Virus record (IMG/VR): IMGVR_UViG_3300025030_000128
Coordinates: 1 to 56,546 of that record
DNA length: 56,546 bases
From: a virus
Taxonomy: Duplodnaviria > Caudoviricetes
Reading direction: 5' to 3' (one strand)
This document shows, in pieces, positions 1,914-13,850 of the stretch. A model generated the notes under the pieces. It searched no databases. It saw only the letters and a list, made by a program, of their open reading frames with translations, and had not been told where the DNA came from. How positions within the stretch are numbered: position 1 is the stretch's first letter; every line of letters starts with the position of its first letter. The position numbers were made by a program, and so were the translations under genes.

Positions 1914-1965
1914 TTTCAACCAACCGCACGACCGGACAAGCCGGTCAGCGGGCGGGCCGTTATGG
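1914..1965 (+). other. attC-like site (somewhat degenerate)
   Basis: TTTCAAC-caacc-GCA[C]GACCgg acaag ccGGTCAGC...GTTATGG; GGACAAGCC-type loop. Confidence 0.6.
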
Positions 1966-2169
1966 CGCGTCTACGCACGCGGTCAGGACACACCCGGACG
2001 CATCCAGATTGCCGTCATAGTGAAGCTCTACATCCTCGGCGGACCATACCGGGTCTCTTGCGCCTATGTCGAGTTGTAGTGTCACAACGATCTCTTCCGG
2101 GCTCTCCCCGCATTCTCTGGCACGTTCAATTGCCGAGTCCACAGCCTCTTTCAGCTCTTTCAAGTTCAT
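1960..2169 (-). CDS. Cassette-borne hypothetical protein (69 aa, acidic)
   Basis: ATG 2169 with GGAG RBS. Stop TAA is supplied by the GTTA core at 1959-1962. Cassette ends GTTATGGCGC (1959) / GCGCCATAAC (2192-2201). Confidence 0.75.
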   Translation of the reverse strand: MNLKELKEAVDSAIERARECGESPEEIVVTLQLDIGARDPVWSAEDVELHYDGNLDASGCVLTACVDAP

Positions 2170-2194
2170 AATTTCGTCTCCGTTGGAGGGTGCG

Positions 2195-2257
2195 CCATAA
2201 CCAGAAAAATACACTCTGGCTGCGCTGCGCTTGCAGGTGATTTACTAGCCGTTAGTT
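2195..2257 (+). other. attC-like site
   Basis: CCATAAC...AAAT[A]CAC...GTGATTT...GTTAGTT; CGCTGCGC loop. Confidence 0.75.
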
Positions 2258-2530
2258 TGCTTCCAACATGTCCAACTCGATATGCTGGAGTGCGCCCATG
2301 ATGACTGCCGCCTGATCTACGAGGTCGCGCCGGTCGCTGAACGTCATGTCGTCACGAAATTTACCGCTGAAACAGAGGGTATATTTATCCTGCTCAACCG
2401 GGGCCATAGTCCCGTCATGCCGTCCACAGCAAAAAAAACTCTGTTCGCCCTTGACCATCTCGGATTGTATTTGCCCGTATGGTTGGCACGTAGTTAGATT
2501 CCTCAAGCATTTTTCAGGGTATTTCAACAT
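2252..2530 (-). CDS. Cassette-borne hypothetical protein (92 aa, Cys-containing)
   Basis: ATG 2530 with AAGGA RBS; stop lies in the GTTA core. Cassette ends GTTAGTTTGC (2251) / GCAAACTAAC (2551-2560). Confidence 0.75.
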   Translation of the reverse strand: MLKYPEKCLRNLTTCQPYGQIQSEMVKGEQSFFCCGRHDGTMAPVEQDKYTLCFSGKFRDDMTFSDRRDLVDQAAVIMGALQHIELDMLEAN

Positions 2531-2553
2531 TTGATGTCCTTTCCGGCACCGCA

Positions 2554-2616
2554 AACTAACCAGTGCTCGGAAGCCGCCCGGTGAGGCCTGGCGGTCCACC
2601 GCCCATGCCGTTATCG
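2554..2616 (+). other. attC-like site (degenerate L boxes)
   Basis: AACTAAC...CCGCC/GGCGG inner stem...GTTATCG. Confidence 0.65.
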
Positions 2617-2618
2617 GT

Positions 2619-2837
2619 CTACTTCTCTCCCGGCAGCTTCTCATAATCCGACTTTCTGAGATCGGATAGCGCCCTTGTCAAATCCATACTCGCACGCTTG
2701 ATTGCTCCGGTTTCTCTCGGGTATGAATAGGTGTAACTATCAGGCTTCTTCTCTCCGAATTGGCCTTCAAGATTGCTGATTGTAACTTGCAGCCGCTTCA
2801 TTTCGGCCTTCACTTTTTCGAGTCTGATACGTTTCAC
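2619..2837 (-). CDS. Cassette-borne hypothetical protein (72 aa)
   Basis: GTG 2837 with AAGGAGG RBS. Cassette ends GTTATCGG (2610) / CCGATAAC (2864-2871). Confidence 0.75.
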   Translation of the reverse strand: MKRIRLEKVKAEMKRLQVTISNLEGQFGEKKPDSYTYSYPRETGAIKRASMDLTRALSDLRKSDYEKLPGEK

Positions 2838-2864
2838 AAATCCTCCTTGCTGGCTACCGGAATC

Positions 2865-2925
2865 CGATAACCAGCGCTGTGCAGCAGGCCGGAAAAGCCC
2901 GGCTGCTGACGCTTGATCGTTATGC
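2865..2925 (+). other. attC-like site
   Basis: CGATAAC...GT[G]CAGCA[G]GCCGG aaaagc CCGGCTGCTGAC...GTTATGC; two extrahelical bases on the left arm. Confidence 0.85.
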
Positions 2926-3159
2926 CCCGCCGGGAAAACATTCGTCCCCGACACAAATTACCTTGGTGTAGTCGTACTGTTTCAATACCGGGAGATTGAC
3001 CGGATCGTTTACCTGCAACCTCGACACTTCGCGCTCCAACCTGCGAATCTCGGCCCATATCTCTACGGGCGTAGCAACCCTTCCGTCGTCGTGGCGGATA
3101 GCTACGCAAACGGGGTCGTCTCTACCCAGATGTTTGTTGCATGGCGACAGATGTAGCAT
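2920..3159 (-). CDS. Cassette-borne hypothetical protein (79 aa)
   Basis: ATG 3159 with AGGAGG RBS; stop lies in the GTTA core. Cassette ends GTTATGCC (2919) / GGCATAAC (3174-3181). Confidence 0.7.
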   Translation of the reverse strand: MLHLSPCNKHLGRDDPVCVAIRHDDGRVATPVEIWAEIRRLEREVSRLQVNDPVNLPVLKQYDYTKVICVGDECFPGGA

Positions 3160-3174
3160 TTTACCTCCTGTCTG

Positions 3175-3231
3175 GCATAACCAGCGGGTACACGGGATCG
3201 CTACGCTCACCCGTGACCCTTGTCGTTATGT
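3175..3231 (+). other. attC-like site (canonical geometry)
   Basis: GCATAAC-cagcg-GGT[A]CACG-ggatcgctacgctcacc-CGTGACC-cttgtc-GTTATGT: 5-nt spacer, 8-nt L'' with an extra 4th base, 7-nt L', 6-nt spacer. Confidence 0.9.
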
Positions 3232-3237
3232 ATAAAA

Positions 3238-3456
3238 TTAATCGTCGTAATTCCACCAAGCATCTTTGATCCCAAATTCCACCGATATACCGTCTTCAGA
3301 TAGAGTAACATCATGTCCGTACTGGTTTTTCGCCTCTCTGTTACCCCTACAATCCGGTTCATCCTGAAACCCGCCTGTCAACCGTTCAATTTCAGCTTTA
3401 TCGGCCTCAGTTTCGGGGGTAATAATTAGAGTTCCATCGTCAAAAGATAATTTCAT
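3238..3456 (-). CDS. Cassette-borne hypothetical protein (72 aa, acidic, TPETEA motif)
   Basis: ORF with GGAGG RBS between the attC at 3175 and the half-site at 3493. Confidence 0.75.
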   Translation of the reverse strand: MKLSFDDGTLIITPETEADKAEIERLTGGFQDEPDCRGNREAKNQYGHDVTLSEDGISVEFGIKDAWWNYDD

Positions 3457-3492
3457 GTAGCACCTCCGAGATTTATGGGCATCAGTGCTTCA

Positions 3493-3518
3493 CTCACCCG
3501 TGACCATTGTCGTTAAAG
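3493..3518 (+). other. Right half of an attC-like site abutting the ruvC stop codon
   Basis: CTCACCCGTGACCATTGTCGTTA (3493-3515) is 22/23 identical to 3206-3228; its TTA is the ruvC stop. Confidence 0.75.
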
Positions 3519-4468: not shown

Positions 4469-4801
4469 TTATTTTTCCAGTTCAAGCCTCTGCTGCCGCT
4501 CGTGCTCCGGGATAATGTCGTGGTCGACTTCTTCCCCGGTGTCCTGGCGGAAGAGAGTGCGAGTGCCGGCGGCCCAGTTGTAATCCCACTGGCACTCGAC
4601 GCTGCGCTGCTCTTCTCCGCTGTCGACGATCTTAGAGAGGCATTCGGCCCGCTCGGAGTAAGGCTTGATGGCGGCGTTGATTTCCTTGCGCTTCTCTTCG
4701 AGCTTGCCCTTCTCGACCAGGCAGGCCGCCAACTCCTTTCCGTAGGCTTCTGACTCTCTTAGGGTGATCTTGACTGGCAGGTAGCGTGTGGCGGTTTGCA
4801 T
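4469..4801 (-). CDS. Hypothetical coiled-coil phage protein
   Basis: ATG 4801 with AAGGAGG RBS (MQTATRYLPV...). Confidence 0.7.
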   Translation of the reverse strand: MQTATRYLPVKITLRESEAYGKELAACLVEKGKLEEKRKEINAAIKPYSERAECLSKIVDSGEEQRSVECQWDYNWAAGTRTLFRQDTGEEVDHDIIPEHERQQRLELEK

Positions 4802-4823
4802 TGTTGTTCCTCCTTGGTTGGGG

Positions 4824-5807
4824 TTAAAATAGACAAGGTTCGAGGTCGGCAGCCAGAGGCTTTCCTTCGGCAGCCGAGAGGCGACGGTTCTGGGCACAGA
4901 CTTCGGAAACGTCGCAATGCTCCGCGCAGCGGGTGCGACCAGACCACCGTTCGACAATCTCGTACTCGGTGTGCGATAGGCCCTTCTCGTTGAAGATGGC
5001 GGTCGCCTCGGCCATGGTATCGGCCTTGCGGTAGGCACGATCCCGACTACCTCGCTTGTAGATCGCCACGTCCATCAACCGCTGCCACATTTCTTTCTTG
5101 CTGCAGGGTGGCAGCTCTTCGTCTGAGAGGTGTTCGCAGTTGAGGATAGCCTGCACCCTTGCCTTAACGTACATCTCCTGCTCAGCGAAGCTCCAGAGCC
5201 TCAGGGGGACCTTGATGATCGAGGCGGGCGGGTAGTTCTGTGGATCCTTGGCGAGCTCGCTCTTCTTCCAGTCTCCGATGAAGGCCCAGACATTCAACCT
5301 CTCGACGGTCTTTCCTTTGAGTCGAAGAAGGTAGGCATATGTGTTTTGGCCGGCTTCCCAATCCTCGTAACCCTCTTTTTTCCCCAACAGAATCTTGTAG
5401 ACCATACAGTTTTTGTAGTCCCGGATCTCGGGCTCTTCGAAGCAATCCAGCTTTCCAGAGACCACACGACCGAGGACGTCTGCGTAGATACGCTCCTCAA
5501 CCACAGAGTTCATGGTTGGGTGCCAGCTATCTTCGAGGATCTGATGACTGACGCTGCCGCGGAACTGCCAGTATTTGTCGATGACGTCGAAGGTCTTAAG
5601 CTTGTCGGGGTGCCGGCGCTTGAGCACGGTCATTTGGGTTGGAGCGGTCAGAGTCGAGGCGGATTCGTCGAAACTTTCTTCGTCTGTGTTGGTATATCGG
5701 TCCTTCAAAATTGCTCGACAGATTTCCGGAGGTAAGGAATGTTTGTTTGTATAGCGCCGGCCGCCTACTTCAAATATGCCGGTGTAATCGATTGCTGCTT
5801 CCGTCAT
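4824..5807 (-). CDS. PD-(D/E)xK Cas4-like exonuclease
   Basis: RGSVSH, SGKLD...IRDYK, QNTYAYL and C-terminal RC..HC.....C motifs. Confidence 0.8.
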   Translation of the reverse strand: MTEAAIDYTGIFEVGGRRYTNKHSLPPEICRAILKDRYTNTDEESFDESASTLTAPTQMTVLKRRHPDKLKTFDVIDKYWQFRGSVSHQILEDSWHPTMNSVVEERIYADVLGRVVSGKLDCFEEPEIRDYKNCMVYKILLGKKEGYEDWEAGQNTYAYLLRLKGKTVERLNVWAFIGDWKKSELAKDPQNYPPASIIKVPLRLWSFAEQEMYVKARVQAILNCEHLSDEELPPCSKKEMWQRLMDVAIYKRGSRDRAYRKADTMAEATAIFNEKGLSHTEYEIVERWSGRTRCAEHCDVSEVCAQNRRLSAAEGKPLAADLEPCLF

Positions 5808-5817
5808 GGTTTTCTCC

Positions 5818-6753
5818 CTAGAAGAGTTGGTCGGCCAGTTGGCCGTGAAAGTGGTTCTCTGTTTTTGAACAGGCGCATCCACCGATCAGGTCAGCCAGTC
5901 GATAGCTGACGTGCGGGCCGTCAAAGGTAAACCCCCTCTTGCCCTTGTTGCAGTTGTCGTTCAGTGCCATCCAGTCGAGCTTGTCCGGATGGGTGAAGGA
6001 CATCTTGTTGGCGACCAGGTATTCGGTGATGGATCCCGGGCGGCCGTCTCTTTTTCTTGACCGCCTCCAGAGTCCTTCGATCTTCCGGTTGTAGGGTTCG
6101 GCCACCACTTCCACCCGCACGATGCGGCCGAGCTCGTCTTCTGAGAGATCGTCCAGTTCGTGCGGCTTCATGTTTGGGCAGAAGATGCAGCTCGACTTGG
6201 GCGGGACCGGCAAACTGGCTTCGACAATGCGGGCTTTGCACTCTTCCCGATCCCATCCCCAGTCCTGTAGAGGGTAGACGTTGTCGCAGCCCTGAGTGGC
6301 ATGGGCTTTGTCGCCGGCCCGCAGTTGGCGGTATTCCTCCCCCGCCTCGAAGCCGATCGCTTTGATGATGTGACCGCGAATGTTTTCCTTCTCCCACCGT
6401 CTCTGCGGCTGAATCTTCCACTTGTCCGTGCAGCTGCCGCGATTGAACGTGGCCCCCGGAAGAGTGGCGTTCATCACCATGTTCCCTTCGATAGTCGTGT
6501 AGGGGCTATACTTCGGGATGTATTTGACCACGGTGACCGGCGGGAAGTGATGCTTGGCCAAGTACTCTTGTATGATTGGAAGGTAATTGTAGGTTGACTG
6601 CTTCTCTGCCCCGACGTCCGCGAAGAGAATGAAATCCGGGCGGATCCCCCTGGCTACGTAGCCGGCAATGATAGCGGTCGAGTCAACCCCGAGCCCATAG
6701 GCCAGTCCGAGGATCGACTTCTGATTGGTCTCAAACAGGTCAATCTGGCTCAT
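5818..6753 (-). CDS. PAPS-reductase-like PP-loop (adenine nucleotide alpha hydrolase) protein
   Basis: AYGLGVDST PP-loop, FADVGAE, CTDKWKI.P, YPL.DWGW.R and PPKSSCIFCP motifs. Confidence 0.8.
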   Translation of the reverse strand: MSQIDLFETNQKSILGLAYGLGVDSTAIIAGYVARGIRPDFILFADVGAEKQSTYNYLPIIQEYLAKHHFPPVTVVKYIPKYSPYTTIEGNMVMNATLPGATFNRGSCTDKWKIQPQRRWEKENIRGHIIKAIGFEAGEEYRQLRAGDKAHATQGCDNVYPLQDWGWDREECKARIVEASLPVPPKSSCIFCPNMKPHELDDLSEDELGRIVRVEVVAEPYNRKIEGLWRRSRKRDGRPGSITEYLVANKMSFTHPDKLDWMALNDNCNKGKRGFTFDGPHVSYRLADLIGGCACSKTENHFHGQLADQLF

Positions 6754-6917: not shown

Positions 6918-7235
6918 CTATTTGTCCAGCGGGATCTCTCCTGTGTAGAGATTGTGGTACTCCTTCTCCAGATCGACCGCGGCTGCATTCAAGACGTCAA
7001 TGAAGACATCCTGGTTGAGAACTAGGTACTTTTTGGAGAGCGTCTGCATCTGTGTATGGATCTCCGCCTTGGTGTCGGCCTGATAGCTGGCGAGCTGCTG
7101 AACGCAGACATCACCTCGGCTGTTGGCGGTTTCGAGGACTCCTCTGTGAATGCGCATAGAAATGCCTGCGCCGACGACGAAGCCAACGAACAGGCCGACA
7201 ATGAAGGCTGTGGATAGGTGTTTTGATACGATCAT
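6918..7235 (-). CDS. Hypothetical membrane-anchored protein
   Basis: N-terminal hydrophobic stretch AFIVGLFVGFVVGAGI; ATGA overlap with the upstream gene. Confidence 0.65.
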   Translation of the reverse strand: MIVSKHLSTAFIVGLFVGFVVGAGISMRIHRGVLETANSRGDVCVQQLASYQADTKAEIHTQMQTLSKKYLVLNQDVFIDVLNAAAVDLEKEYHNLYTGEIPLDK

Positions 7236-7468
7236 TTGTCCTCCATCTTGGCGCGGATAGCGGCGGCAATACATTTATGGTCTGTGCAATAAACCGGCCC
7301 TTCGTCTGCCCCAATGTCAGCAATCACCGCCGCTTCCCTAAGTCCTCCAAGACGACCGGCGTTGAAGCAGTTCCTACGCACCTCCGTTTGATGCCCGTCG
7401 AGAAGCAGGGCGTATTCGTTACTATAGTGTAGTTTTCCGTACTCTTTGGCGAACTTTTCAAACATCAT
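7232..7468 (-). CDS. Hypothetical protein (AGRLxGLREAA...AIRAKME type)
   Basis: GGAGG RBS; paralogous to 7975..8271. Confidence 0.65.
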   Translation of the reverse strand: MMFEKFAKEYGKLHYSNEYALLLDGHQTEVRRNCFNAGRLGGLREAAVIADIGADEGPVYCTDHKCIAAAIRAKMEDK

Positions 7469-7603
7469 CTCTACCTCCCGCGCCATAACCATGACGCTGC
7501 AATTAGGTTAATTTTCTTCGTCCTTCCATCCAAGAAAGCGGGCGAGGAGTTCGGTCATTTCTTCGGCTCCCAATGTGTCGGGTTAATTGGTAGACCGATC
7601 ATT

Positions 7604-7974: not shown

Positions 7975-8271
7975 CTATTCCTCCATCTTGGCGCGGATAG
8001 CGGTTTTATGTATCGCAACGACATCGACCTCTTGCCCGATGTAGGGCGTCAGAGCGAACGATACCAATTCTAGTCGTCCTTCTCCACCAACCTTTTTCTG
8101 TACCGGCTGAGAGAATATCCTGATGGCGTTATTTGGTTCTCCTTCTGCCGCCTCCCTGAGTCCTTCGAGACGGCCAGCGGTGAAGGCGCGCTTCGCAATC
8201 TCCCGGCCTCCCGGCCACGGTCGGTTGTCTGACTCGGGGCGGGAAAATGGCCACCACTCGGCGAATGTCAT
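7975..8271 (-). CDS. Hypothetical protein (AGRLxGLREAA...AIRAKME type)
   Basis: AGGAG RBS; paralogous to 7232..7468. Confidence 0.65.
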   Translation of the reverse strand: MTFAEWWPFSRPESDNRPWPGGREIAKRAFTAGRLEGLREAAEGEPNNAIRIFSQPVQKKVGGEGRLELVSFALTPYIGQEVDVVAIHKTAIRAKMEE

Positions 8272-8387
8272 GGCTTGTTCTCCTGTTCTTTAAGCGTCCA
8301 GACGCGGACGAAGCGGCCGTGGTTGCTCTTCCAGGTTGAGGCTTGGGTACGAAGCACGATCCATTCGTCCTTGGAAAAGATTGCTCT
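8268..8387 (-). pseudogene. Start-less gene fragment directly after the HNH stop codon
   Basis: RAIFSKDEWIVLRTQASTWKSNHGRFVRVWTLKEQENKP* ends in an ATGA overlap with the next gene but has no start of its own. Confidence 0.4.
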
Positions 8388-8957
8388 TTAATAAAGGGCT
8401 GAATAAATGACAGCACGTTCATCGCTATAGCCGCGTTTTATTCTGTCATAGATTCTGTCTCTCTTAATTCCGTAATGTTCCGCCCATTGAGTTATATTTT
8501 TTGTTACGCCCTCAATTGTAATTAAGTGGCATTGTCGGCTATTGTTACCTTGTTCTTTTTTTGTAGACCACTTAACATTTTCCGGCTCATAGTTTCCGTC
8601 GTTTTTAATGCGGTCAACTGAATGATCTCTTGATGGACGCTGACCAATATCTTTTTTGAATGCTAGGAAATCGTTCTTCCATTTATCGCAAACGACAATT
8701 CCCCTTCCGCCATAATTATTATAGTGCACGTGATTCTTATTATAGCAACGCTCTAACATTTTCGACCATAAACGGAAAAGGTTTGTCTTTGTTTCGTTGT
8801 GCTTTACCCTGTTACAACCACAGGATTTTGAAAGCCCGCGGGTAAGCGAGCTTTTGTATATATCTTTGACGACACCGCAATCGCATTTGCACGTAAGGTG
8901 ATGTTTCTTTGTGCTAATCCCGATGACTAAGAGTTTTCCATATTTATTTCCTATCAT
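8388..8957 (-). CDS. Free-standing HNH-type homing endonuclease
   Basis: GNKYGKLLVI, CKCDCG, SCGC, YGGRGIVVC and HSVDRIKNDGNYEPENVKW motifs; visibly AT-rich. Confidence 0.85.
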   Translation of the reverse strand: MIGNKYGKLLVIGISTKKHHLTCKCDCGVVKDIYKSSLTRGLSKSCGCNRVKHNETKTNLFRLWSKMLERCYNKNHVHYNNYGGRGIVVCDKWKNDFLAFKKDIGQRPSRDHSVDRIKNDGNYEPENVKWSTKKEQGNNSRQCHLITIEGVTKNITQWAEHYGIKRDRIYDRIKRGYSDERAVIYSALY

Positions 8958-9306
8958 CTTCTTGCTCCCGGAGAAGAAGTTCGAGGCGGGCGAGGCTATT
9001 CCAGACCTCATGAGAGAGATGTAGGAGCCCACTGTCCTGAGCATGGGTCTCTCCCTTACAGATGTCCAGCTCGTGTCTCATTTGGGCGTCTGCGTAGCGG
9101 AGCTGCCCGTTGGGGATGGTGTGCCAGGTATCCCATCCGTGCTTCGTGGCGCCGAACTCGGAGACTCTGGCGACTTGCTCCAGGGCTCTAGGAAAGTAGC
9201 GCAGGACAGAGTGGATGTGGGCCTTGCCGTTGTCATGTTTGGCGCCAGGGTCGACAAGGAAAGATTTCCATGGATACAGTTTGGCGTCCTCTTCTTGGTC
9301 GCTCAT
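8944..9306 (-). CDS. dATP/dGTP diphosphohydrolase (DUF5664-like)
   Basis: GAKHDNGK, V.EFGA.KHG, RY.DA.MRH and DSGLLHL.H..WN motifs. Confidence 0.8.
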   Translation of the reverse strand: MSDQEEDAKLYPWKSFLVDPGAKHDNGKAHIHSVLRYFPRALEQVARVSEFGATKHGWDTWHTIPNGQLRYADAQMRHELDICKGETHAQDSGLLHLSHEVWNSLARLELLLREQEDDRK

Positions 9307-9572
9307 TTGTTCCTCGCTGCAAGATAGTGGTAGGAGGGCTCAGAAGGCTTCCAGATGCGGCCGTCCGCTCCCTTGTAGTAAGGACGCGGGCAGCCCTTGC
9401 GATTGCCTCCACAACAGTCCTGGGCGTACTGCTTGGGGTTGAAGAGATGACGGAGGCCTTCGGCGTGGACGATCTGGGTGAGGGTGGAATGATTGGTGCC
9501 AATAACGAGGGCGGTCGCCCTGATGCTCATGCCAAGGCCGGCATAATATGTGATCTCTTCTTTGAGGGTCAT
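9303..9572 (-). CDS. Small HTH-like protein
   Basis: GMSIRATALVIGTNHSTL helix-turn-helix-like pattern. Confidence 0.55.
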   Translation of the reverse strand: MTLKEEITYYAGLGMSIRATALVIGTNHSTLTQIVHAEGLRHLFNPKQYAQDCCGGNRKGCPRPYYKGADGRIWKPSEPSYHYLAARNK

Positions 9573-9772
9573 ATTGGCAACGTTTCGATCTCGTCGGCGG
9601 CCCAACGAAGGTAGTCCGCGTACTCTTCCTTCGACCGCCACCTGGTCATATTGTCGAGAGAAACGACGAGGAAGCGGCGGCTGCCTGACATTTCGACCGT
9701 GACGGCGAGAGACTGGTAAGTTTCAGCTTTGTTGCCGCGGTCTGCGGTGAAGCGTTGCTCGGTGAGTTTCAT
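9569..9772 (-). CDS. Hypothetical protein
   Basis: 67 aa ORF ending LRWAADEIE; overlaps the next gene by 4 nt. Confidence 0.6.
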   Translation of the reverse strand: MKLTEQRFTADRGNKAETYQSLAVTVEMSGSRRFLVVSLDNMTRWRSKEEYADYLRWAADEIETLPI

Positions 9773-9774
9773 GG

Positions 9775-9822
9775 TTTCAACTTTCTCATGGAGCGGACAA
9801 GCCGCTCATGCTTTAGTTATCC
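9775..9822 (+). other. attC-like site (48 bp, minimal)
   Basis: TTTCAAC-tttct-CAT[G]GAGC-ggacaagcc-GCTCATG-cttta-GTTATCC. Confidence 0.85.
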
Positions 9823-9824
9823 TT

Positions 9825-10196
9825 CTATTTGCCTCGGAACATATCACCCACAATTTTAAACGCTTGTTCCAGCCGCTGCATTGCTTGTTCGGCCTGTAAT
9901 CGCTTGCGTTCAGCCTTGGCTACCCTTCGTTTTTCCACATTTTCAGGCTTCCAGTATGTGGCGTGGCGTTTATCCTGGATTGCCTTTTTCTTGGTTGCAA
10001 TAGATTCCTGAATCGTTGCCTCTTTTTCATAATCAACCATCCGCCGCGCCTGGTTGCCCTCTTCACAAACAGTGCAAAGAGCATAGTCCAGTTGGTTGTG
10101 ATATGTCGGCACCACGCAGCAATCCTCACAGACAGGTTCACCGCAAATATGACAGGTGAAATCGGTTTTATTCTCTTCGCAAACGTGGCAAATCAT
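9825..10196 (-). CDS. Cassette-borne Zn-finger plus charged coiled-coil protein (123 aa)
   Basis: CHVC, CHIC, CEDC and CTVC motifs; GGGAG RBS. Confidence 0.75.
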   Translation of the reverse strand: MICHVCEENKTDFTCHICGEPVCEDCCVVPTYHNQLDYALCTVCEEGNQARRMVDYEKEATIQESIATKKKAIQDKRHATYWKPENVEKRRVAKAERKRLQAEQAMQRLEQAFKIVGDMFRGK

Positions 10197-10226
10197 GAAA
10201 ACTTCTCCCTCGATTGCCACCCCGAA

Positions 10227-10277
10227 GGATAACAATCGGCTGGACGGGTCAAGCCCGTCATCCTCTAGCCGTTATGG
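10227..10277 (+). other. attC-like site
   Basis: GGATAAC-aatcg-GCT[G]GACG-ggtcaagcc-CGTCATC-ctctagcc-GTTATGG. Confidence 0.8.
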
Positions 10278-10311
10278 CGCAAGGCCAGCATCGACCCTGC
10301 GCCACGTTCAG

Positions 10312-10530
10312 TTAAAGCAAAATACCCCAATCTTCGGACAGCATATCGAGATTGTTCGGGTTCCACGGAAACAGTTTTCCGGCAACGTCGCTCATGTAAA
10401 TGTACGAGTGTCCCATTTTGCTGTTTTCGTCGCAAACCTGAAGAGCTAACCACATTCCCTTGCCATTCCAGCCATCACGACTTACTTTGCTTCCGAGCTT
10501 GAGTGCTTCCAACGCTTGTCCGAAATTCAT
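10312..10530 (-). CDS. tad2: DUF2829 / Tad2-like anti-defence nucleotide sponge (72 aa), cassette-borne
   Basis: MNFGQALEALK.G.KV.R.GWNGKGMWL ... PW.P...DMLSEDW signature; AAGGAG RBS. Confidence 0.85.
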   Translation of the reverse strand: MNFGQALEALKLGSKVSRDGWNGKGMWLALQVCDENSKMGHSYIYMSDVAGKLFPWNPNNLDMLSEDWGILL

Positions 10531-10563
10531 ACTGTTCTCCTTTGTAGTTTGGTTGCCCATGCG

Positions 10564-10622
10564 CCATAACCAGCGCATAGACACCGGCTCCCGCTGGTCG
10601 CGGGTCATGCTTGTCGTTATCC
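10564..10622 (+). other. attC-like site (canonical geometry)
   Basis: CCATAAC-cagcg-CAT[A]GAC[A]CCG-gctcccgctggtcg-CGGGTCATG-cttgtc-GTTATCC. Confidence 0.9.
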
Positions 10623-10988
10623 CTGATGGTGTAAGTAGCGCCCAATCTTAGAGTGCTTCACTTGCCGGGCTGCCTGAATCCGGCCAGAATCAATATCCTT
10701 CCCTGCATATTGCCCAGCGGCTAACAGGTCTAGCGCGGCCAGCACATCACCGCATTCGCGCTCCAACAGCTCCCTATTAGTTGGGCCTCCGTCAGGGTGC
10801 CGGGACTCGTAGCCATGCCTGAGAATTTTCCCGACAGCCTGAATTACCTCGCCGCATTCTTCCGCCAATAGTGCAAGTCGTTCGACCTCCGCAAGGGAAA
10901 GGAACGGGATAACCAGTGAATCGACCGGAGGTTTATCCTTGTCGCACTGGCACTGCATGGTTGATGTATCTACCGTCGATTTACACAT
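10617..10988 (-). CDS. MazG-like nucleotide pyrophosphohydrolase
   Basis: LAEECGEVIQAVGKILRHG ... LERECGDVLA: EExxE...ExxD all-alpha NTP-PPase pattern. Confidence 0.8.
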   Translation of the reverse strand: MCKSTVDTSTMQCQCDKDKPPVDSLVIPFLSLAEVERLALLAEECGEVIQAVGKILRHGYESRHPDGGPTNRELLERECGDVLAALDLLAAGQYAGKDIDSGRIQAARQVKHSKIGRYLHHQG

Positions 10989-11342
10989 TTCGTTCTCCCG
11001 GTCATTCACAGACCCGTTAAATAGATCCCTGGCCCCATTAAATCTCCGCATGGTGTCTCCTGACCTTCCGAGACCTGCGCAGAGAAACTTAGACCGGCGG
11101 CATATAGACTGATTGCTGGCCGGGAGACTCACATACCCTGTATCGACCGCCCGTATCGTGGGCTAAACGCTCCGCCTTCCCCTTGTGGTGTTGGGAAGAA
11201 CCATTACAGCCATGCGTATGATAGGTCGTTTGCTCCGGGGCTAAGAGCGGGTAAGCGGTCTTTGGTGCGACTTCCTTGCCAGCCTTCCGTCCTCAGTTTG
11301 GGACATTTGGTGAGGCCCACTGGCGAGGCCAAGAGCGGGCAA

Positions 11343-11449
11343 AGCAAAACCCGCAAAACCACTTCGCCTTGGACGGGCAGAGAAGGGATTTACGGGTGCG
11401 GGTTTTGCTGTGTTCAGTGTTTGGAAGTTTACAACAGATGCCCGTCCAA
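11343..11449 (-). promoter_or_regulatory. Structured leader with competing pairings (attenuator-like)
   Basis: 13-bp inverted repeat 11343-11355/11397-11409 overlaps an 11-bp inverted repeat 11369-11379/11439-11449. Confidence 0.55.
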
Positions 11450-11459
11450 AGGCAAGGAC

Positions 11460-11488
11460 ATGTTACTTAGGGCTGAAAAAAAAGTCAA
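11460..11488 (-). promoter_or_regulatory. Sigma70-type promoter facing cassette array 2
   Basis: TTGACT-17 nt-TAACAT on the minus strand. Confidence 0.65.
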
Positions 11489-11504
11489 ACTTTATCTTTG
11501 GCGA

Positions 11505-11765
11505 TCAGAGATGACAGAGAATGTTGCGGACGTTTTTGCGGGATTTGCGAACGAAGGAAGGGCTACAACCTTGGCAATCCCACTGCCAGGCTCCTTCTTT
11601 CAGCAAGGCAACGAGCGTGTCCTTGACAAGCCTGTAGGTGCCTTCTTCTTCGGCGGCAACATCGATGCAGCCGGTGGCGATTACCTTGCGGGCGTTTTCT
11701 CTGGCCCGCTCGAAAGATTTTTTCAGTAGTTCGTCAACCTTGTCGAGAAATTCTTGGTCAGTCAT
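11505..11765 (-). CDS. Hypothetical protein
   Basis: ATG 11765 with GAGGAG RBS (MTDQEFLDK...). Confidence 0.65.
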   Translation of the reverse strand: MTDQEFLDKVDELLKKSFERARENARKVIATGCIDVAAEEEGTYRLVKDTLVALLKEGAWQWDCQGCSPSFVRKSRKNVRNILCHL

Positions 11766-12093
11766 TGTTTTTCTCCTCTGGTCGTTTGATTTCGCCAACT
11801 GTGCTGCCGTTGAAGGTGTAGGCGACGATCGGCGGAACAACGGTGGTGCCGAGCAGATCCTTCACTTCCCGGGCCGAGATCGACACGCCGCGGTCGGCGT
11901 ACTTGTCGACCAGCACTGGATCGTTCGAGACGAAGGCGACCGCCTTGTCGTTCTGATACAAGGCCGCTATCACCTTCTTGTCAGTCGAGAGCATGTAGTC
12001 AACCACACTCTTTCCCAATAGGTCGTTGGCCGGGATTGGGTTCCAGTGCGGCCGGTTGTCGATGATCTCCAGCTGTTTGATTTCGACTCTCAT
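11758..12093 (-). CDS. Hypothetical protein
   Basis: 111 aa ORF with AAGGA RBS in the replication cluster. Confidence 0.65.
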   Translation of the reverse strand: MRVEIKQLEIIDNRPHWNPIPANDLLGKSVVDYMLSTDKKVIAALYQNDKAVAFVSNDPVLVDKYADRGVSISAREVKDLLGTTVVPPIVAYTFNGSTVGEIKRPEEKNND

Positions 12094-12105
12094 CTTTTCC
12101 TTTCT

Positions 12106-12576
12106 TTAGGTGGCCAGATACTTGACCGCATCAACAAATGACATCTGATCACGATCGATCAGTGTATCAAGGGCTGAGAAGTAGCGGTTACAGGACCCAC
12201 ACCAGGCGATCCCCTTCTTGCTCATGAAGGTGAGCGACGGCCGCTTGTCGTCGTGGCACCAGGCGAAGGCTTTCCCGAAGCGGTCGAACTGAATCACCGC
12301 GGTCACAGGGACGGCCCGGGCCGCCTCGATCATGGCGTCGGTAATCTGGTTGGTCTGTTGGGGTACAGAAAACTCTCCGCCTTCGTTCTTAGTCAGGTAG
12401 GCGATCTCGTCGAGGATTTCTTTGGCGAAGTGGAGAGCAACCGGAGAACCGTCGAGGATCAGGGCGCCGAGGTAGGGGGTGAGGAATCTCTTTCTCATGC
12501 GACTAGCGGCGAGCTTGTTGATCTCGAACTCCTTGGCCTTGCGGAAGGTAAGCGCGGGGTCTTTATTGGCGAACAT
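12106..12576 (-). CDS. CHC2 (primase-type) zinc-finger protein
   Basis: WCHDDKRPSL..WCGSC...D....MSFVDAVKYL resembles the DnaG zinc-binding domain; no TOPRIM domain. Confidence 0.7.
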   Translation of the reverse strand: MFANKDPALTFRKAKEFEINKLAASRMRKRFLTPYLGALILDGSPVALHFAKEILDEIAYLTKNEGGEFSVPQQTNQITDAMIEAARAVPVTAVIQFDRFGKAFAWCHDDKRPSLTFMSKKGIAWCGSCNRYFSALDTLIDRDQMSFVDAVKYLAT

Positions 12577-12584
12577 GGATTCTC

Positions 12585-12749
12585 CTACTGATCGAGCGGA
12601 TGCCCTTCCGCTTCGTGGTCCTCAACACAGCATTCGCAGTAGTACTTCCCTCCGTCCACCGCATAGACCTCTTCTGGCTGAATGCGGTCCCGGCAGTCGA
12701 GACAAATCTTTTCGGTGTCGGAGGTACGGCGGGCAAGATTTGGTATAAT
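12585..12749 (-). CDS. Small Zn-finger ORF with an atypical (ATT/ATA) start
   Basis: ICLDC...YYCECC; AAGGAA upstream but no ATG. Confidence 0.35.
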   Translation of the reverse strand: MIPNLARRTSDTEKICLDCRDRIQPEEVYAVDGGKYYCECCVEDHEAEGHPLDQ

Positions 12750-12761
12750 TATTTCCTTTTT

Positions 12762-12974
12762 TTAAGTAGGTCTTCCATCGCACATTGGGCAAGCGTGAGA
12801 GCCTGGGTTTCTTTTGAAATACTCAATGATTCGTAAAGAACCTCCACCTTCAGCGCATGGATCGCCTTCGCAGTAAGCACAAGTTCCATTCAGGCCGCGA
12901 GGATAATCTGCGATATAAAGAACTTCGAGCTGTTCTTTTGTTCCATCTCCTGAGAGATAATCAACTACTGACAT
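12762..12974 (-). CDS. Small Cys-rich hypothetical protein
   Basis: CAYCEGDPC...CPMCDG; AT-rich. Confidence 0.6.
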   Translation of the reverse strand: MSVVDYLSGDGTKEQLEVLYIADYPRGLNGTCAYCEGDPCAEGGGSLRIIEYFKRNPGSHACPMCDGRPT

Positions 12975-12986
12975 ATTTTTTTCCTT

Positions 12987-13850
12987 TCAGAATGGGCAAT
13001 CGTGGTAGACGGGAATGGAATACTCTTTGTCGCTGAGGCATTTGAAGCGGCCGGTCTTGCGTTCGTAGTCGAGATGGACAGAACCGATCTGCCCCATCCA
13101 CTTGAGCTTCACCTTGGCCGCCTCAATTTCGATTTGGTTCTTTGTCCTGTCGGGACGGTGGGCGATGAAAGCATAGTCCACCTTGTTCCACCACATTGCC
13201 CCGCCTGAGATGTCAGAGACGGTGCATCGTGGCATTTTCCCCGTCTTGTCTTTCATGGCAGACTTGGGATGAGCGACGATGTTGACCAGAATGTTTTGCC
13301 GGCGGGCGAAGTAAGAGATTTCGGTTAGTATCTCGGCCAGGTATTCGTCCTCTCTTTGTTCCCGGCCCCGGGCATGCGAGCAGCCGTTCCAGGGATCGAT
13401 CACTAGGCAGTCGAGACCGCCTATTTCCATCTTCCGTTTTGCTTTTTCGAGGATCTGCTTGGGTGAAGGCAGGTCGTCCTCAATGTTGATCCAGGAGAAC
13501 GAGTCGTTGATGCGGGCGAGCACTTCTTTGCACTCGGTCTCAGTGAACTGCTTGACCCATTTGCCGACAATCTTTTCCGCCAGCTTGGCGATATGCTCCT
13601 GCACCGGGTAGTTTTCCGGCGAGAAGTACAGTGTTTTCCAGCCGTGCATGATCGAAGCGTTGACCAGAACCGCGTCGAGCCATTCGCTCTTGCCGCTACC
13701 GGGGTATCCGGTTACCACTCCGAGATATCCCTTGGCCAGCTTGAAAAGTTCATCGAGGTCCTGGTAGCCAGATGAGTAGGTCTTGCGGAAGGTTGTTTCA
13801 GTGCGGAGCTTGTGAAATTCTCCGGCAAGTTCGTTCGCAGAAATAATCAA
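12987..13850 (-). CDS. dnaB: DnaB/SF4-type replicative helicase (ATPase domain)
   Basis: Walker A TGYPGSGKS, VIDPWN, VAHP and DISGG motifs. Confidence 0.85.
   Translation of the reverse strand: MIISANELAGEFHKLRTETTFRKTYSSGYQDLDELFKLAKGYLGVVTGYPGSGKSEWLDAVLVNASIMHGWKTLYFSPENYPVQEHIAKLAEKIVGKWVKQFTETECKEVLARINDSFSWINIEDDLPSPKQILEKAKRKMEIGGLDCLVIDPWNGCSHARGREQREDEYLAEILTEISYFARRQNILVNIVAHPKSAMKDKTGKMPRCTVSDISGGAMWWNKVDYAFIAHRPDRTKNQIEIEAAKVKLKWMGQIGSVHLDYERKTGRFKCLSDKEYSIPVYHDCPF

What the first reader, a model, noticed from the sequence alone, without database searches (positions are those of the whole stretch)
10271..10622. Tad2/DUF2829-like anti-defence sponge packaged as a gene cassette
Seen: a 72-aa ORF with the GWNGKGM and PW.P..D.L.EDW signature lies between perfect 11-bp cassette ends with a canonical attC. 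Established: Tad2 (DUF2829) proteins sequester Thoeris gcADPR, and some bind cyclic dinucleotides. Inference: the arrays are swappable counter-defence cargo, mirroring the anti-phage cassettes of bacterial integrons. The neighbouring unknown cassettes are therefore strong candidates for new anti-defence proteins.
Basis: partly seen in the sequence, partly recalled or inferred. Interest (0 to 1): 0.88.

Follow-up and report, generated by a model that had tools for sequence, protein, structure and literature searches.

The report
Tad2 sponge gene in phage integron cassette
A phage from groundwater carries a small Tad2-type anti-defence gene inside a swappable integron-style gene cassette, part of a cassette family that unrelated phages share and that is built back to front compared with textbook integrons.

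Summary
Window 10315-10530 (-) encodes a 72-aa Tad2/DUF2829 protein: Pfam 84 bits, predicted fold matches solved Tad2 (TM 0.87), four main ligand-contact residues kept. It lies between perfect 11-bp inverted ends (10271-10281, 10560-10570) beside a 59-nt attC-like hairpin site.

The window is a 56.5-kb phage contig with two arrays, eight cassettes in all. For seven cassettes the two ends are 8-11 bp complementary (1.16 such pairs expected by chance).

The Tad2 cassette's flanks recur nearly unchanged around four other ORF families in nine other places, including Mu-like and SU10-like phages. So the unit is swappable.

A related site motif occurs in 35 more viral loci. Of 27 records searched, 3 encode a full integron integrase, which lies directly downstream of the array and on the same strand.

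- The site travels with the ORF that follows it, so "canonical attC" is only partly right.
- Identified cargo is mixed (Tad2, MazG, NUDIX, ThyX, RyR, methylases). The six unknown neighbours are therefore not shown to be anti-defence.

No integrase lies in this contig. The Tad2 ligand is unknown.

The parts
10315..10530 (-). Tad2-like (DUF2829) ORF, 72 aa; stop codon at 10312-10314
   Evidence: Pfam PF11195 84.2 bits. PDB sequence hits 8v3e, 9eib and 8sme at E 1e-12 to 7e-12. AF2 model pLDDT 91.9. Foldseek TM 0.87 to SPO1 Tad2 8smf.
10272..10616 (-). Tad2 gene cassette (345 bp) as bounded by the inferred crossover points in the shared TAAC/GTTA cores
   Evidence: 11-bp perfect complementary ends. 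Homology to nine other contexts starts and stops at these cores. Contigs of other genomes diverge right behind 10619 (table 7).
10564..10622 (-). attC-like site S_h (59 nt) that travels with the Tad2-type cassette, upstream of the ORF
   Evidence: Pattern hit. An S_h-family site lies upstream of all 10 cassettes that start with this 11-mer; nine are near-identical and the L228 RyR copy is shorter and diverged. Word depth 470 in run X3 against about 5 for the flanking phage sequence.
10531..10563 (-). Conserved 5' leader with ribosome-binding site, part of the shared cassette chassis
   Evidence: 88-97% identical over 73-85 nt (site plus leader) in C92 and L227-L233.
10269..10311 (-). Conserved 3' chassis: a hairpin whose 3' half is the 11-bp end box
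   Evidence: 97-100% identical over 38-54 nt in nine other contexts; hairpin read from the sequence.
10227..10277 (-). attC-like site S_g between Tad2 and the zinc-ribbon ORF
   Evidence: Pattern hit. Folds with z = -3.5 against shuffles. A similar site body occurs in the integrase-bearing provirus contig L342.
9825..10196 (-). Cassette ORF, 123 aa, cysteine-rich (zinc-ribbon-like), no family above threshold
   Evidence: 10-bp complementary ends 9816/10233. Only a sub-threshold Pfam hit (Caldesmon, E 0.0079, 15.5 bits against 50) and no PHROG family. Atlas scores under 0.9.
9775..9822 (-). Terminal attC-like site S_j of array 2
   Evidence: Hairpin with one bulged base, z = -3.3.
10617..10988 (-). 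MazG-like cassette ORF. The MazG domain starts right after the end box at 10913. A start codon and short leader lie inside the degenerate upstream site (10907-10950).
   Evidence: phrog_4856 7.7e-19 and Pfam MazG 23.3 bits. All 80 kept relatives match from residue 40 of the 171-aa frame onwards, most from 76-86. 8-bp complementary ends 10616/10913. The module 10906-11019 is shared with other contigs.
1914..3518 (-). Array 1: five cassettes with 69-, 92-, 72-, 79- and 72-aa ORFs of no known family. Sites at 1914-1965, 2195-2257, 2554-2616, 2865-2925 and 3175-3231, plus a degenerate one at about 3470-3518.
   Evidence: Tiled complementary pairs; pattern hits; hairpin folds; no Pfam or PHROG family for 5 of 5 ORFs.

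Best explanation
The 72-aa ORF is a short-form member of the Tad2/DUF2829 family. It most likely acts as a homo-oligomeric sponge that sequesters a nucleotide-derived immune signal of the host early in infection; which signal is unknown.

The gene is the cargo of a 345-bp integron-type cassette. This is the middle unit of a three-cassette array (MazG-like, Tad2, zinc-ribbon ORF) in the phage's leftward early region. A second array of five cassettes lies 7 kb away.

Each cassette is bounded by imperfect hairpin sites with conserved AAC and GTT cores. The two ends of one cassette are complementary, as expected if the unit passes through a circular form and recombines in the core.

In this family the hairpin site travels with the ORF that follows it and supplies that ORF's ribosome-binding site or start codon. 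The crossover lies in the TAAC core on the coding strand. Where an integrase is present, the array runs towards, and ends just upstream of, a co-oriented integron integrase.

Shown: family membership of the protein, the site anatomy, the end complementarity, reuse of the same flanks with other ORFs in unrelated phages, and linkage of the site family to IntI genes.

Inferred: that an integron integrase moves these units. It would be encoded by a co-infecting phage, by the host, or by the missing 23% of this genome. Also inferred: that the coding strand is the recombining strand, and that this Tad2 blocks a Thoeris-like system.
For: Protein
- PF11195, 84.2 bits; PDB Tad2 chains at E about 1e-12.
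- 734 of 746 candidate homologues have E <= 1e-5, many about 72 aa long.
- AF2 pLDDT 91.9. Foldseek gives 24 matches at E <= 0.001; every listed row at or below that value is a Tad2, HgmTad2 or AcrIIA7 chain. The best is 8smf_H, TM 0.87, 41% identity.
- SPO1 Tad2 contacts W25, N26, W73, D79 (passage) align to W21, N22, W56, D62. These are invariant in 39 homologues.
- Four-copy model: score 0.93, best of 3 controls 0.00. That mark was reached by 20 of 30 proteins solved as pairs and 1 of 23 solved as single chains. Runs agree in at least 97% of contacts and partner pLDDT is at least 92. The pass may rest on solved Tad2 tetramers.

Cassette
- 4 pattern hits against 0.22 expected.
- 8 complementary pairs against 1.16 expected, 7 of them tiled.
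- 19 sites fold better than shuffles, mean z -2.44.
- None of the sites is called promoter-like or terminator-like.
- Arrays are 51-52% G+C against 56% for the window.

Mobility
- blastn of the window against phage-like contig C92 finds only the two flanks of the Tad2 ORF: 88% over 84 bp and 97% over 38 bp.
- An exact 21-mer of the flank finds 7 metagenome contigs.
- In all 10 instances the same upstream site, leader and 3' hairpin enclose one of 5 different ORF families. Sequence beyond the TAAC cores differs.
- Backbones differ: Mu-like, SU10-like, and this phage.
- Contigs of runs X1 and X3 join 10319 to 10535 with 375 other letters between, at depth 20 and 232.
- The relative L200 (helicase 65% identical) has four such cassettes about 1.2 kb downstream of the homologues of window genes 4472-5885. 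That is roughly where array 1 lies in the window, but the ORFs are different.

Integrase link
- A site motif finds 35 new viral loci. About 29 have clear hairpins and 14 have 2 or more tiled cassettes.
- TIGR02249 scores over its cut-off in 3 of 27 of these records and in 0 of 14 control genomes.
- C92 and G030 carry IntI C-terminal fragments.
- In 5 of 5 cases the IntI or fragment lies directly downstream of the array on the same strand.
- In L336 one cassette occurs twice, and the two copies diverge right after TAAC.
Against: - No tyrosine recombinase is found in the window (CheckV 77% complete), in L200's record (81%), or in four other viral fragments.
- 24 of 27 records with the site motif have no IntI over the cut-off.
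- The full IntI of the Desulfuromonadaceae MAG (G001) is not next to any recognisable site.
- The outer boxes do not fit GTTRRRY at position 5.
- RNAalifold gave no consensus structure. Pair counts on the MAFFT alignment are weak, with the central helix 57% paired.
- A crude test of which strand is coding around the motif hits is inconclusive: 30 against 21, with 5 ties.
- The raw pair count is not specific in A+T-rich DNA. Two hundred other loci give 8.3 pairs per 56.5 kb, so only the own-composition control and the tiling count.
- No contig shows clean loss of the cassette. Contigs cannot show rare forms.
- 0 of 80 other viral Tad2 genes are cassette-borne, so this packaging is the exception for Tad2.
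- Secondary ligand contacts of SPO1 Tad2 are not kept: T78, I63, T65, D67, H71, S76 align to L61, M46, D48, A50, F54, N59.
Confidence: 0.78

Rival explanations
1. The cassettes are shuffled by homologous recombination between the conserved flanks (about 85 nt upstream, about 45 nt downstream). This would resemble the promoter-stem-loop modules of T4-type phages, and no site-specific integrase would be involved. The hairpins would then be regulatory or structural.
For: The flanks are 88-100% identical between unrelated phages. The window encodes an exonuclease and a Holliday-junction resolvase but no integrase. Different ORFs sit in the same flanks.
Against: - Most cassettes do not share flanks with each other. 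Each has its own 8-11 bp complementary end pair around a common AAC/GTT core, which homologous exchange does not predict.
- Homology ends at the cores.
- IntI genes sit at the array ends in 5 of 5 cases where any is present.
- None of the sites looks like a sigma-70 promoter or intrinsic terminator.
Confidence: 0.12
2. The sites are only RNA or DNA hairpins for transcript processing, termination or stability between small early genes. The complementary ends are by-products, and the arrays are not mobile.
For: The sites lie between co-directional small genes, fold as hairpins, and stop codons overlap the core in several cassettes.
Against: - The same unit with identical ends occurs in Mu-like, SU10-like and other phage contigs with different cargo.
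- Depth of the flanks is up to 100-fold that of the phage backbone in run X3.
- A syntenic array in L200 holds different genes.
- The sites are linked to integron integrases.
- They have no T-run and are not called terminators.
Confidence: 0.04
3. The DUF2829 protein is not a signal sponge here. It acts otherwise, for example as an anti-CRISPR like AcrIIA7, or it has lost ligand binding.
For: - AcrIIA7 is in the same family.
- This form lacks about 13 residues of the loop that holds helix alpha-2 in SPO1 Tad2 (passage).
- Six secondary contact residues differ.
Against: - The four main contact residues are invariant in the short-form subfamily.
- The tetramer model passes its controls.
- The solved AcrIIA7/HgmTad2 entries are themselves complexes with cADPR isomers and cGG (entry titles).
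- The authors of the Tad2 paper argue that the family is anti-Thoeris rather than anti-CRISPR (passage).
Confidence: 0.15

Closest known systems
Clusters of attC sites lacking an integrase (CALINs) and integrons in phage genomes (Qi et al. 2023, PMC9892861; abstract and section 3.4 read)
   Same: Arrays of attC-type sites with small cassettes in phage genomes, usually without an integrase. Some carry DNA methylases, read there as counter-defence. In that paper five of six tested phage attC sites were recombined by IntI1.
   Different: Here the site travels with the ORF downstream of it. A conserved chassis includes the leader and a 3' hairpin. The array runs towards a co-oriented intI where one is present. 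The same cassettes are shared by unrelated phage backbones. The cargo includes a Tad2 sponge. None of this is in the parts of that paper that I read.
Canonical bacterial integron cassettes (CDS followed by its attC; bottom strand folds; cleavage in 5'-AAC-3'; passages of bioRxiv 10.1101/2022.09.11.507474)
   Same: Imperfect hairpin sites with AAC/GTT cores, bulged bases, cassette ends complementary to each other, an IntI next to an attI-like spacer, and a cassette duplicated at the position next to the integrase.
   Different: The ORFs lie on the strand that carries the cleaved AAC box and intI, so each site precedes its ORF. The canonical order is CDS then attC. The box consensus is GTTAT.. 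rather than GTTRRRY. The arrays sit in phage early operons, not downstream of a Pc promoter.
Inverted integron-integrase group (Treponema and others; passage of Cury et al. 2016, PMC4889954)
   Same: Integrase and cassettes point the same way.
   Different: [quoted passage not shown] By linkage and by the duplicated cassette, intI here keeps the usual relation to site polarity and to the attI-like spacer at its 5' end, and it is the ORFs that are turned. I could not run IntegronFinder to compare orientation calls.
SPO1 Tad2 and relatives (PDB 8sme/8smf, 8v3e, 9eib, 8wjd, 8kbj)
   Same: Pfam family, fold, the four main ligand-contact residues, and a predicted tetramer.
   Different: 72 aa against 88-104 aa: it lacks the long beta2-beta3 loop. 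The residues facing the adenine side and coordinating waters differ. The ligand is unknown. It is cassette-borne, unlike 80 of 80 other viral homologues examined.
Promoter-stem-loop (PeSL) modules of T4-type phages (recalled, not looked up)
   Same: Short structured intergenic modules flank small accessory ORFs in plastic regions of phage genomes and are linked to gene shuffling.
   Different: PeSLs are similar repeats that hold an early promoter. The sites here differ from one another, have cassette-specific complementary ends, show no promoter-like match, and are linked to integron integrases.

Membership tests
Tad2 / DUF2829 (PF11195) | Match to the family HMM above the curated cut-off | tested here: met
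   84.2 bits against a cut-off of 25, full-length match.
Tad2 / DUF2829 (PF11195) | Fold of solved Tad2: N-terminal helix plus antiparallel sheet | tested here: met
   AF2 model pLDDT 91.9. Foldseek TM 0.87 to 8smf and 0.88 to 8v3e.
Tad2 / DUF2829 (PF11195) | Main ligand-contact residues of SPO1 Tad2 (W25, N26, W73, D79) | tested here: met
   They align to W21, N22, W56, D62 (alignment; residues from the passage). All four are invariant in 39 homologues.
Tad2 / DUF2829 (PF11195) | Secondary and water-mediated contacts of SPO1 Tad2 (T78, I63, T65, D67, H71, S76) | tested here: not met
   They align to L61, M46, D48, A50, F54, N59. This bears on ligand specificity, not on family membership.
Tad2 / DUF2829 (PF11195) | Homotetramer that forms the binding pockets | tested here: inconclusive
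   Four-copy model: score 0.93, best control 0.00. The mark was reached by 20 of 30 solved pairs and 1 of 23 single chains. Runs agree in at least 97% of contacts and pLDDT is at least 92. Solved Tad2 tetramers exist, so the pass may show likeness only.
Tad2 / DUF2829 (PF11195) | Binds an immune signalling molecule and rescues phage from the matching defence system | not testable with these tools
   Needs binding assays and infection assays.
Integron gene cassette / attC site | Imperfect inverted repeat with conserved AAC and GTT cores, about 50-130 nt | tested here: met
   4 strict pattern hits against 0.22 expected. In 19 aligned sites the AAC and GTT columns are invariant.
Integron gene cassette / attC site | Single strand folds as a hairpin with unpaired or bulged bases | tested here: met
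   Mean z -2.44 over 19 sites, with single-base bulges in most. The consensus-structure tools were uninformative.
Integron gene cassette / attC site | The two ends of one cassette are complementary (split outer box), and cassettes are tiled | tested here: met
   7 tiled pairs of 8-11 bp; 8 pairs in all against 1.16 expected.
Integron gene cassette / attC site | Box consensus RYYYAAC / GTTRRRY (G|TTRRRY as quoted in Qi et al. 2023) | tested here: not met
   The boxes read GTTAT[G/C].., GTTAGTT or GTTGAAA. Position 5 is mostly T.
Integron gene cassette / attC site | The cassette is a CDS ended by its own attC (passage) | tested here: not met
   The site travels with the ORF downstream of it in 10 of 10 instances of the Tad2-type chassis. 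A duplicated cassette in L336 diverges right after its 3' TAAC.
Integron gene cassette / attC site | An integron integrase (IntI) beside the array | tested here: not met
   For this window: no PF00589 match. For the site family: TIGR02249 over the cut-off in 3 of 27 viral records, plus 2 fragments, all at array ends.
Integron gene cassette / attC site | Hit by the IntegronFinder or HattCI attC models; recombination by IntI | not tested
   The models are not on hand and the assay is a bench test.
CALIN (cluster of attC sites lacking an integrase) | Two or more attC sites together with no intI nearby | tested here: met
   Arrays of 6 and 4 sites and no integrase in 56.5 kb. This depends on accepting the sites as attC.

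The most novel reading that the evidence does not exclude
A widespread, so far undescribed class of phage-borne integrons with turned-round cassettes. Each recombination site precedes its ORF and provides that ORF's translation start. Arrays are read through as part of the early operon towards a co-oriented integrase. The same cassettes circulate among unrelated phages (Mu-like, SU10-like and others) of one groundwater or freshwater community. Such a system would give phages a shared, rapidly exchangeable pool of accessory and counter-defence genes such as Tad2 and orphan methylases.
Probability: 0.5. Interest if true: 0.88.

Novelty: new variant of a known kind. Interest (0 to 1): 0.78.

Why it matters
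Bacterial integrons were recently shown to stock anti-phage defence cassettes. This finding shows the other side: phages carry integron-type arrays, and one cassette holds a recognised anti-defence sponge.

The reuse of one cassette chassis with different genes in unrelated phages is direct sequence evidence that phages trade single small genes through a site-specific route. That could explain part of the mosaic 'moron' content of early regions.

The reversed build (site first, ORF second, integrase last) poses a testable question about strand choice by integron integrases.

The arrays also give a defined list of small unknown ORFs to screen. The identified cargo is mixed, however, so they should not be assumed to be anti-defence.

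Tried and rejected
- An early idea that excising the Tad2 cassette would restore a 'perfect' resident site (GGATAAC/GTTATCC) was dropped. Those boxes belong to the neighbouring MazG and zinc-ribbon cassettes, each with its own longer partner.
- blastn of window 8000-13000 against the phage collection gave no match.
- The MazG protein as a probe gave only distant relatives and no close genome.
- The first viral pattern scan gave 119 single hits, about what chance gives, and was not used.
- The genome-contig scan gave 8 hits, as expected by chance. Only L202 was a true homologue.
- I first took L202's contig for a bacterial integron. Its genes are phage-like, and the MAG's own full IntI has no such sites beside it. 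So 'host integron of the same site family' is not shown.
- Rfam gave no hit in the window.
- RNAalifold gave no consensus, and the pair counts on the MAFFT alignment were weak.
- My generic hairpin scan was unspecific and recovered only 3 of the known sites.
- The ORF-strand test around the motif hits was inconclusive.
- Relaxed pair criteria (GTT core, up to 2 mismatches) gave 98 pairs against 78 expected and were uninformative.
- The attI-like motif of L336 and L352 has no match in the window.
- The Atlas search for the zinc-ribbon ORF scored under 0.9.
- In run X3 no contig covers the inside of the Tad2 ORF, while the phage flanks are present at depth about 5. One contig of depth 5.9 joins 10321 to 10535 with unknown letters between. 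This may be another cargo in the same phage, but missing cover proves nothing.
- Runs X5 and X6 held only small shares and are not used for habitat.
- Supplementary tables of the papers were not opened. They may list phage CALINs or Tad2 homologues that bear on novelty.
- Not-in-print statements rest only.
Full report
WHAT IS THERE

The window is a whole IMG/VR virus record: 56,546 bp, linear, CheckV 77% complete. Late genes run rightwards from about 23 kb. Small early genes run leftwards from about 23 kb down to 2 kb.

The early region encodes:
- a DnaB-like helicase, a primase zinc ribbon, DUF932 and a GDSL lipase;
- an exonuclease, a PAPS-reductase-like protein, a replication initiator and a Holliday-junction resolvase.

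The ORF of the finding starts at the ATG at 10530 and stops at 10312-10314 on the minus strand.

THE PROTEIN

It matches Pfam Tad2-like (PF11195) over its whole length: 84.2 bits against a cut-off of 25. By sequence it matches the solved Tad2 proteins of Myroides and SPO1 phages at E about 1e-12, and AcrIIA7 more weakly.

The 72-aa form is common. Of 746 candidates, 734 have E <= 1e-5, with up to 87% identity.

An AlphaFold2 model from 39 homologues has pLDDT 91.9. It superposes on SPO1 Tad2 with TM 0.87.

The Tad2 paper names W25, N26, W73 and D79 as the main ligand contacts (passage). By the alignment these are W21, N22, W56 and D62 here, and all four are invariant in the subfamily. Six secondary contacts are not kept. 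About 13 residues of the loop that carries helix alpha-2 are missing.

A four-copy model scored 0.93 with a best control of 0.00. That mark was reached by 20 of 30 proteins solved as pairs and by 1 of 23 solved as single chains. The runs agree in at least 97% of contacts, and partner pLDDT is at least 92. Tad2 tetramers have been solved, so this shows likeness only.

Tad2 homologues bind different signals (passages). The ligand of this one therefore stays open.

THE CASSETTE

The 11-mer GTTATGGCGCA is perfect at 10271 (+) and 10560 (-), flanking the ORF.

Hairpin sites of 48-63 nt with TAAC and GTTA at their two ends lie between the small genes. The strict pattern gives 4 hits against 0.22 expected.

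The telling feature is that the box to the left of each ORF is complementary over 8-11 bp to the box on its right, while the boxes of one physical site are not. Eight such pairs occur against 1.16 expected. Seven of them tile two arrays, 1959-3181 and 9816-10913.

Nineteen sites from the window and from related loci fold better than shuffled copies (mean z -2.44), mostly with single bulged bases. None is called a sigma-70 promoter or an intrinsic terminator.

Array 2 is MazG-like, Tad2, then a cysteine-rich 123-aa ORF. Array 1 holds five ORFs of 69-92 aa. None of these six unknowns has a Pfam or PHROG family, apart from one sub-threshold Caldesmon hit for the zinc-ribbon ORF.

EVIDENCE THAT THE UNIT MOVES

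A pattern scan of species genomes gave chance-level hits, except for one near-identical copy of the site upstream of Tad2. It lies in contig C92 of a Desulfuromonadaceae MAG.

blastn of the whole window against C92 finds only the two flanks of the Tad2 ORF. C92 is itself phage-like, with SU10-type capsid, portal and adaptor.

A 21-mer of the flank finds seven metagenome contigs. Four of them are also IMG/VR viral records. Three are versions of a Mu-like phage with six tiled cassettes.

In all ten instances the same upstream site, leader with ribosome-binding site, and 3' hairpin enclose one of five ORF families:
- Tad2;
- a 74-aa ORF;
- a 100-aa ORF;
- a 125-aa RyR-domain ORF;
- a 71-aa ORF.

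Sequence beyond the TAAC cores differs in every case.

Contigs of two runs from one groundwater study show the same thing. They join the two flanks across 375 other letters, diverge right behind 10619, and give the flanks up to 100 times the depth of the phage backbone.

The only close relative of this phage, L200, has four such cassettes downstream of the homologues of window genes 4472-5885. That is roughly where array 1 lies, but the ORFs are different.

By contrast, 0 of 80 other viral Tad2 genes have cassette ends; 0 of 318 control placements had them, and both positive controls were found.

WHICH ENZYME, AND THE POLARITY

The window has no tyrosine recombinase. A motif of the commonest site class finds 35 further viral loci, about 29 with clear hairpins and 14 with two or more tiled cassettes.

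Among 27 of these records, 3 encode an integron integrase over the TIGR02249 cut-off. None of 14 control genomes does. Two more records carry C-terminal fragments.

In all five, the integrase or fragment lies directly downstream of the array on the strand of the cassette ORFs. In the three where I read the junction in detail (L336, L355, L352) it follows a spacer of about 55-60 nt.

In L336 the cassette next to the integrase is repeated further up the array. The two copies diverge right after the 3' TAAC. C92 shows a similar repeat.

Together with the chassis linkage, this puts the crossover in the TAAC core on the coding strand. It means each site belongs to the ORF that follows it. The canonical cassette is a CDS ended by its attC, with cleavage in AAC of the folded bottom strand (passages).

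So, relative to site polarity and to intI, the ORFs here are turned round. In one site class a start codon and a short leader lie inside the site and read through the box into the cargo. The MazG-like ORF is an example.

That the coding strand is the recombining one is inference. The position of the bulges fits it only by my recollection of textbook sites.

WEAK POINTS

- No integrase is found in this contig or in most related records.
- The box consensus is not canonical.
- The consensus-structure tools failed.
- The coding-strand census was inconclusive.
- No clean excision product was seen.
- The MAG's own IntI has no such sites beside it, so a host source for the enzyme is not shown.

COMPARISON AND NOVELTY

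Phage CALINs and a few phage integrons are in print, with methylase cassettes read as counter-defence (Qi et al. 2023; abstract and section 3.4). AntiDefenseFinder notes anti-defence genes in integrons (passages).

My searches found no report of any of the following:
- a Tad2 cassette in a phage;
- a shared cassette chassis among unrelated phages;
- site-first cassettes that run towards intI.

I rate this a new variant of a known kind.

Identified cargo across the arrays is mixed: Tad2, MazG, NUDIX, ThyX, RyR and methylases. The claim that the neighbouring ORFs are strong anti-defence candidates is therefore not supported, though it is worth a screen.

Noticed in passing
window 8388-9044 (-): A 218-aa ORF of visibly lower G+C whose sequence reads like an HNH-type homing endonuclease (judged by eye; no Pfam hit at E <= 0.01). 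It overlaps the 3' end of the dATP/dGTP diphosphohydrolase N-domain ORF 8944-9306 (Pfam 81 bits). It may be a homing insertion.
   Followed up: no
window 7232-7492 (-) and 7975-8271 (-); motif at 7479-7489: Two small ORFs share an identical 25-nt 3' end and look like paralogues. A one-mismatch copy of the 11-mer end box sits just upstream of the ribosome-binding site of the first, with no partner box. It may be a relic of a cassette.
   Followed up: partly
window 10906-11019 (-); L229 about 12990-13038; L233 (coding strand) about 1500-1580: In one class of sites a start codon and a short leader ending in PVDSLV lie inside the site and read through the end box into the cargo ORF (MazG-like in the window). 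The last 19-20 nt before the box are identical in three contexts that have different boxes after them.
   Followed up: partly
L336 1-104 and 3096-3199; L225 (C92) 323-701 and 1788-2166: In two phage contigs the cassette next to the integrase, or to its remnant, is an exact repeat of a cassette further up the array. This is what reinsertion of an excised cassette beside the integrase would give. An assembly artefact is not excluded.
   Followed up: partly
L336 3200-3256 and L352 about 8210-8268: The spacers between the last cassette and intI share a motif of about 15 nt in two of three records read, a candidate attI. It has no match in the window.
   Followed up: partly
window 11140-11500: A gene-poor stretch upstream of array 2 with several palindromes (pairs I7 and I9) and one promoter-like match on the minus strand at 11488-11460. 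It may hold the promoter that drives the MazG-Tad2 array.
   Followed up: no
window 48841-56544 (+): An open reading frame of at least 2568 aa that runs off the end of the contig. Not examined.
   Followed up: no
L236 9529-10176 (-), L228 1161-1640 (-): Cassettes of the same family carry a ThyX thymidylate synthase (Pfam Thy1, 4.5e-51) and a NUDIX hydrolase (2.9e-7). Nucleotide-metabolism genes therefore also travel as cassettes.
   Followed up: partly
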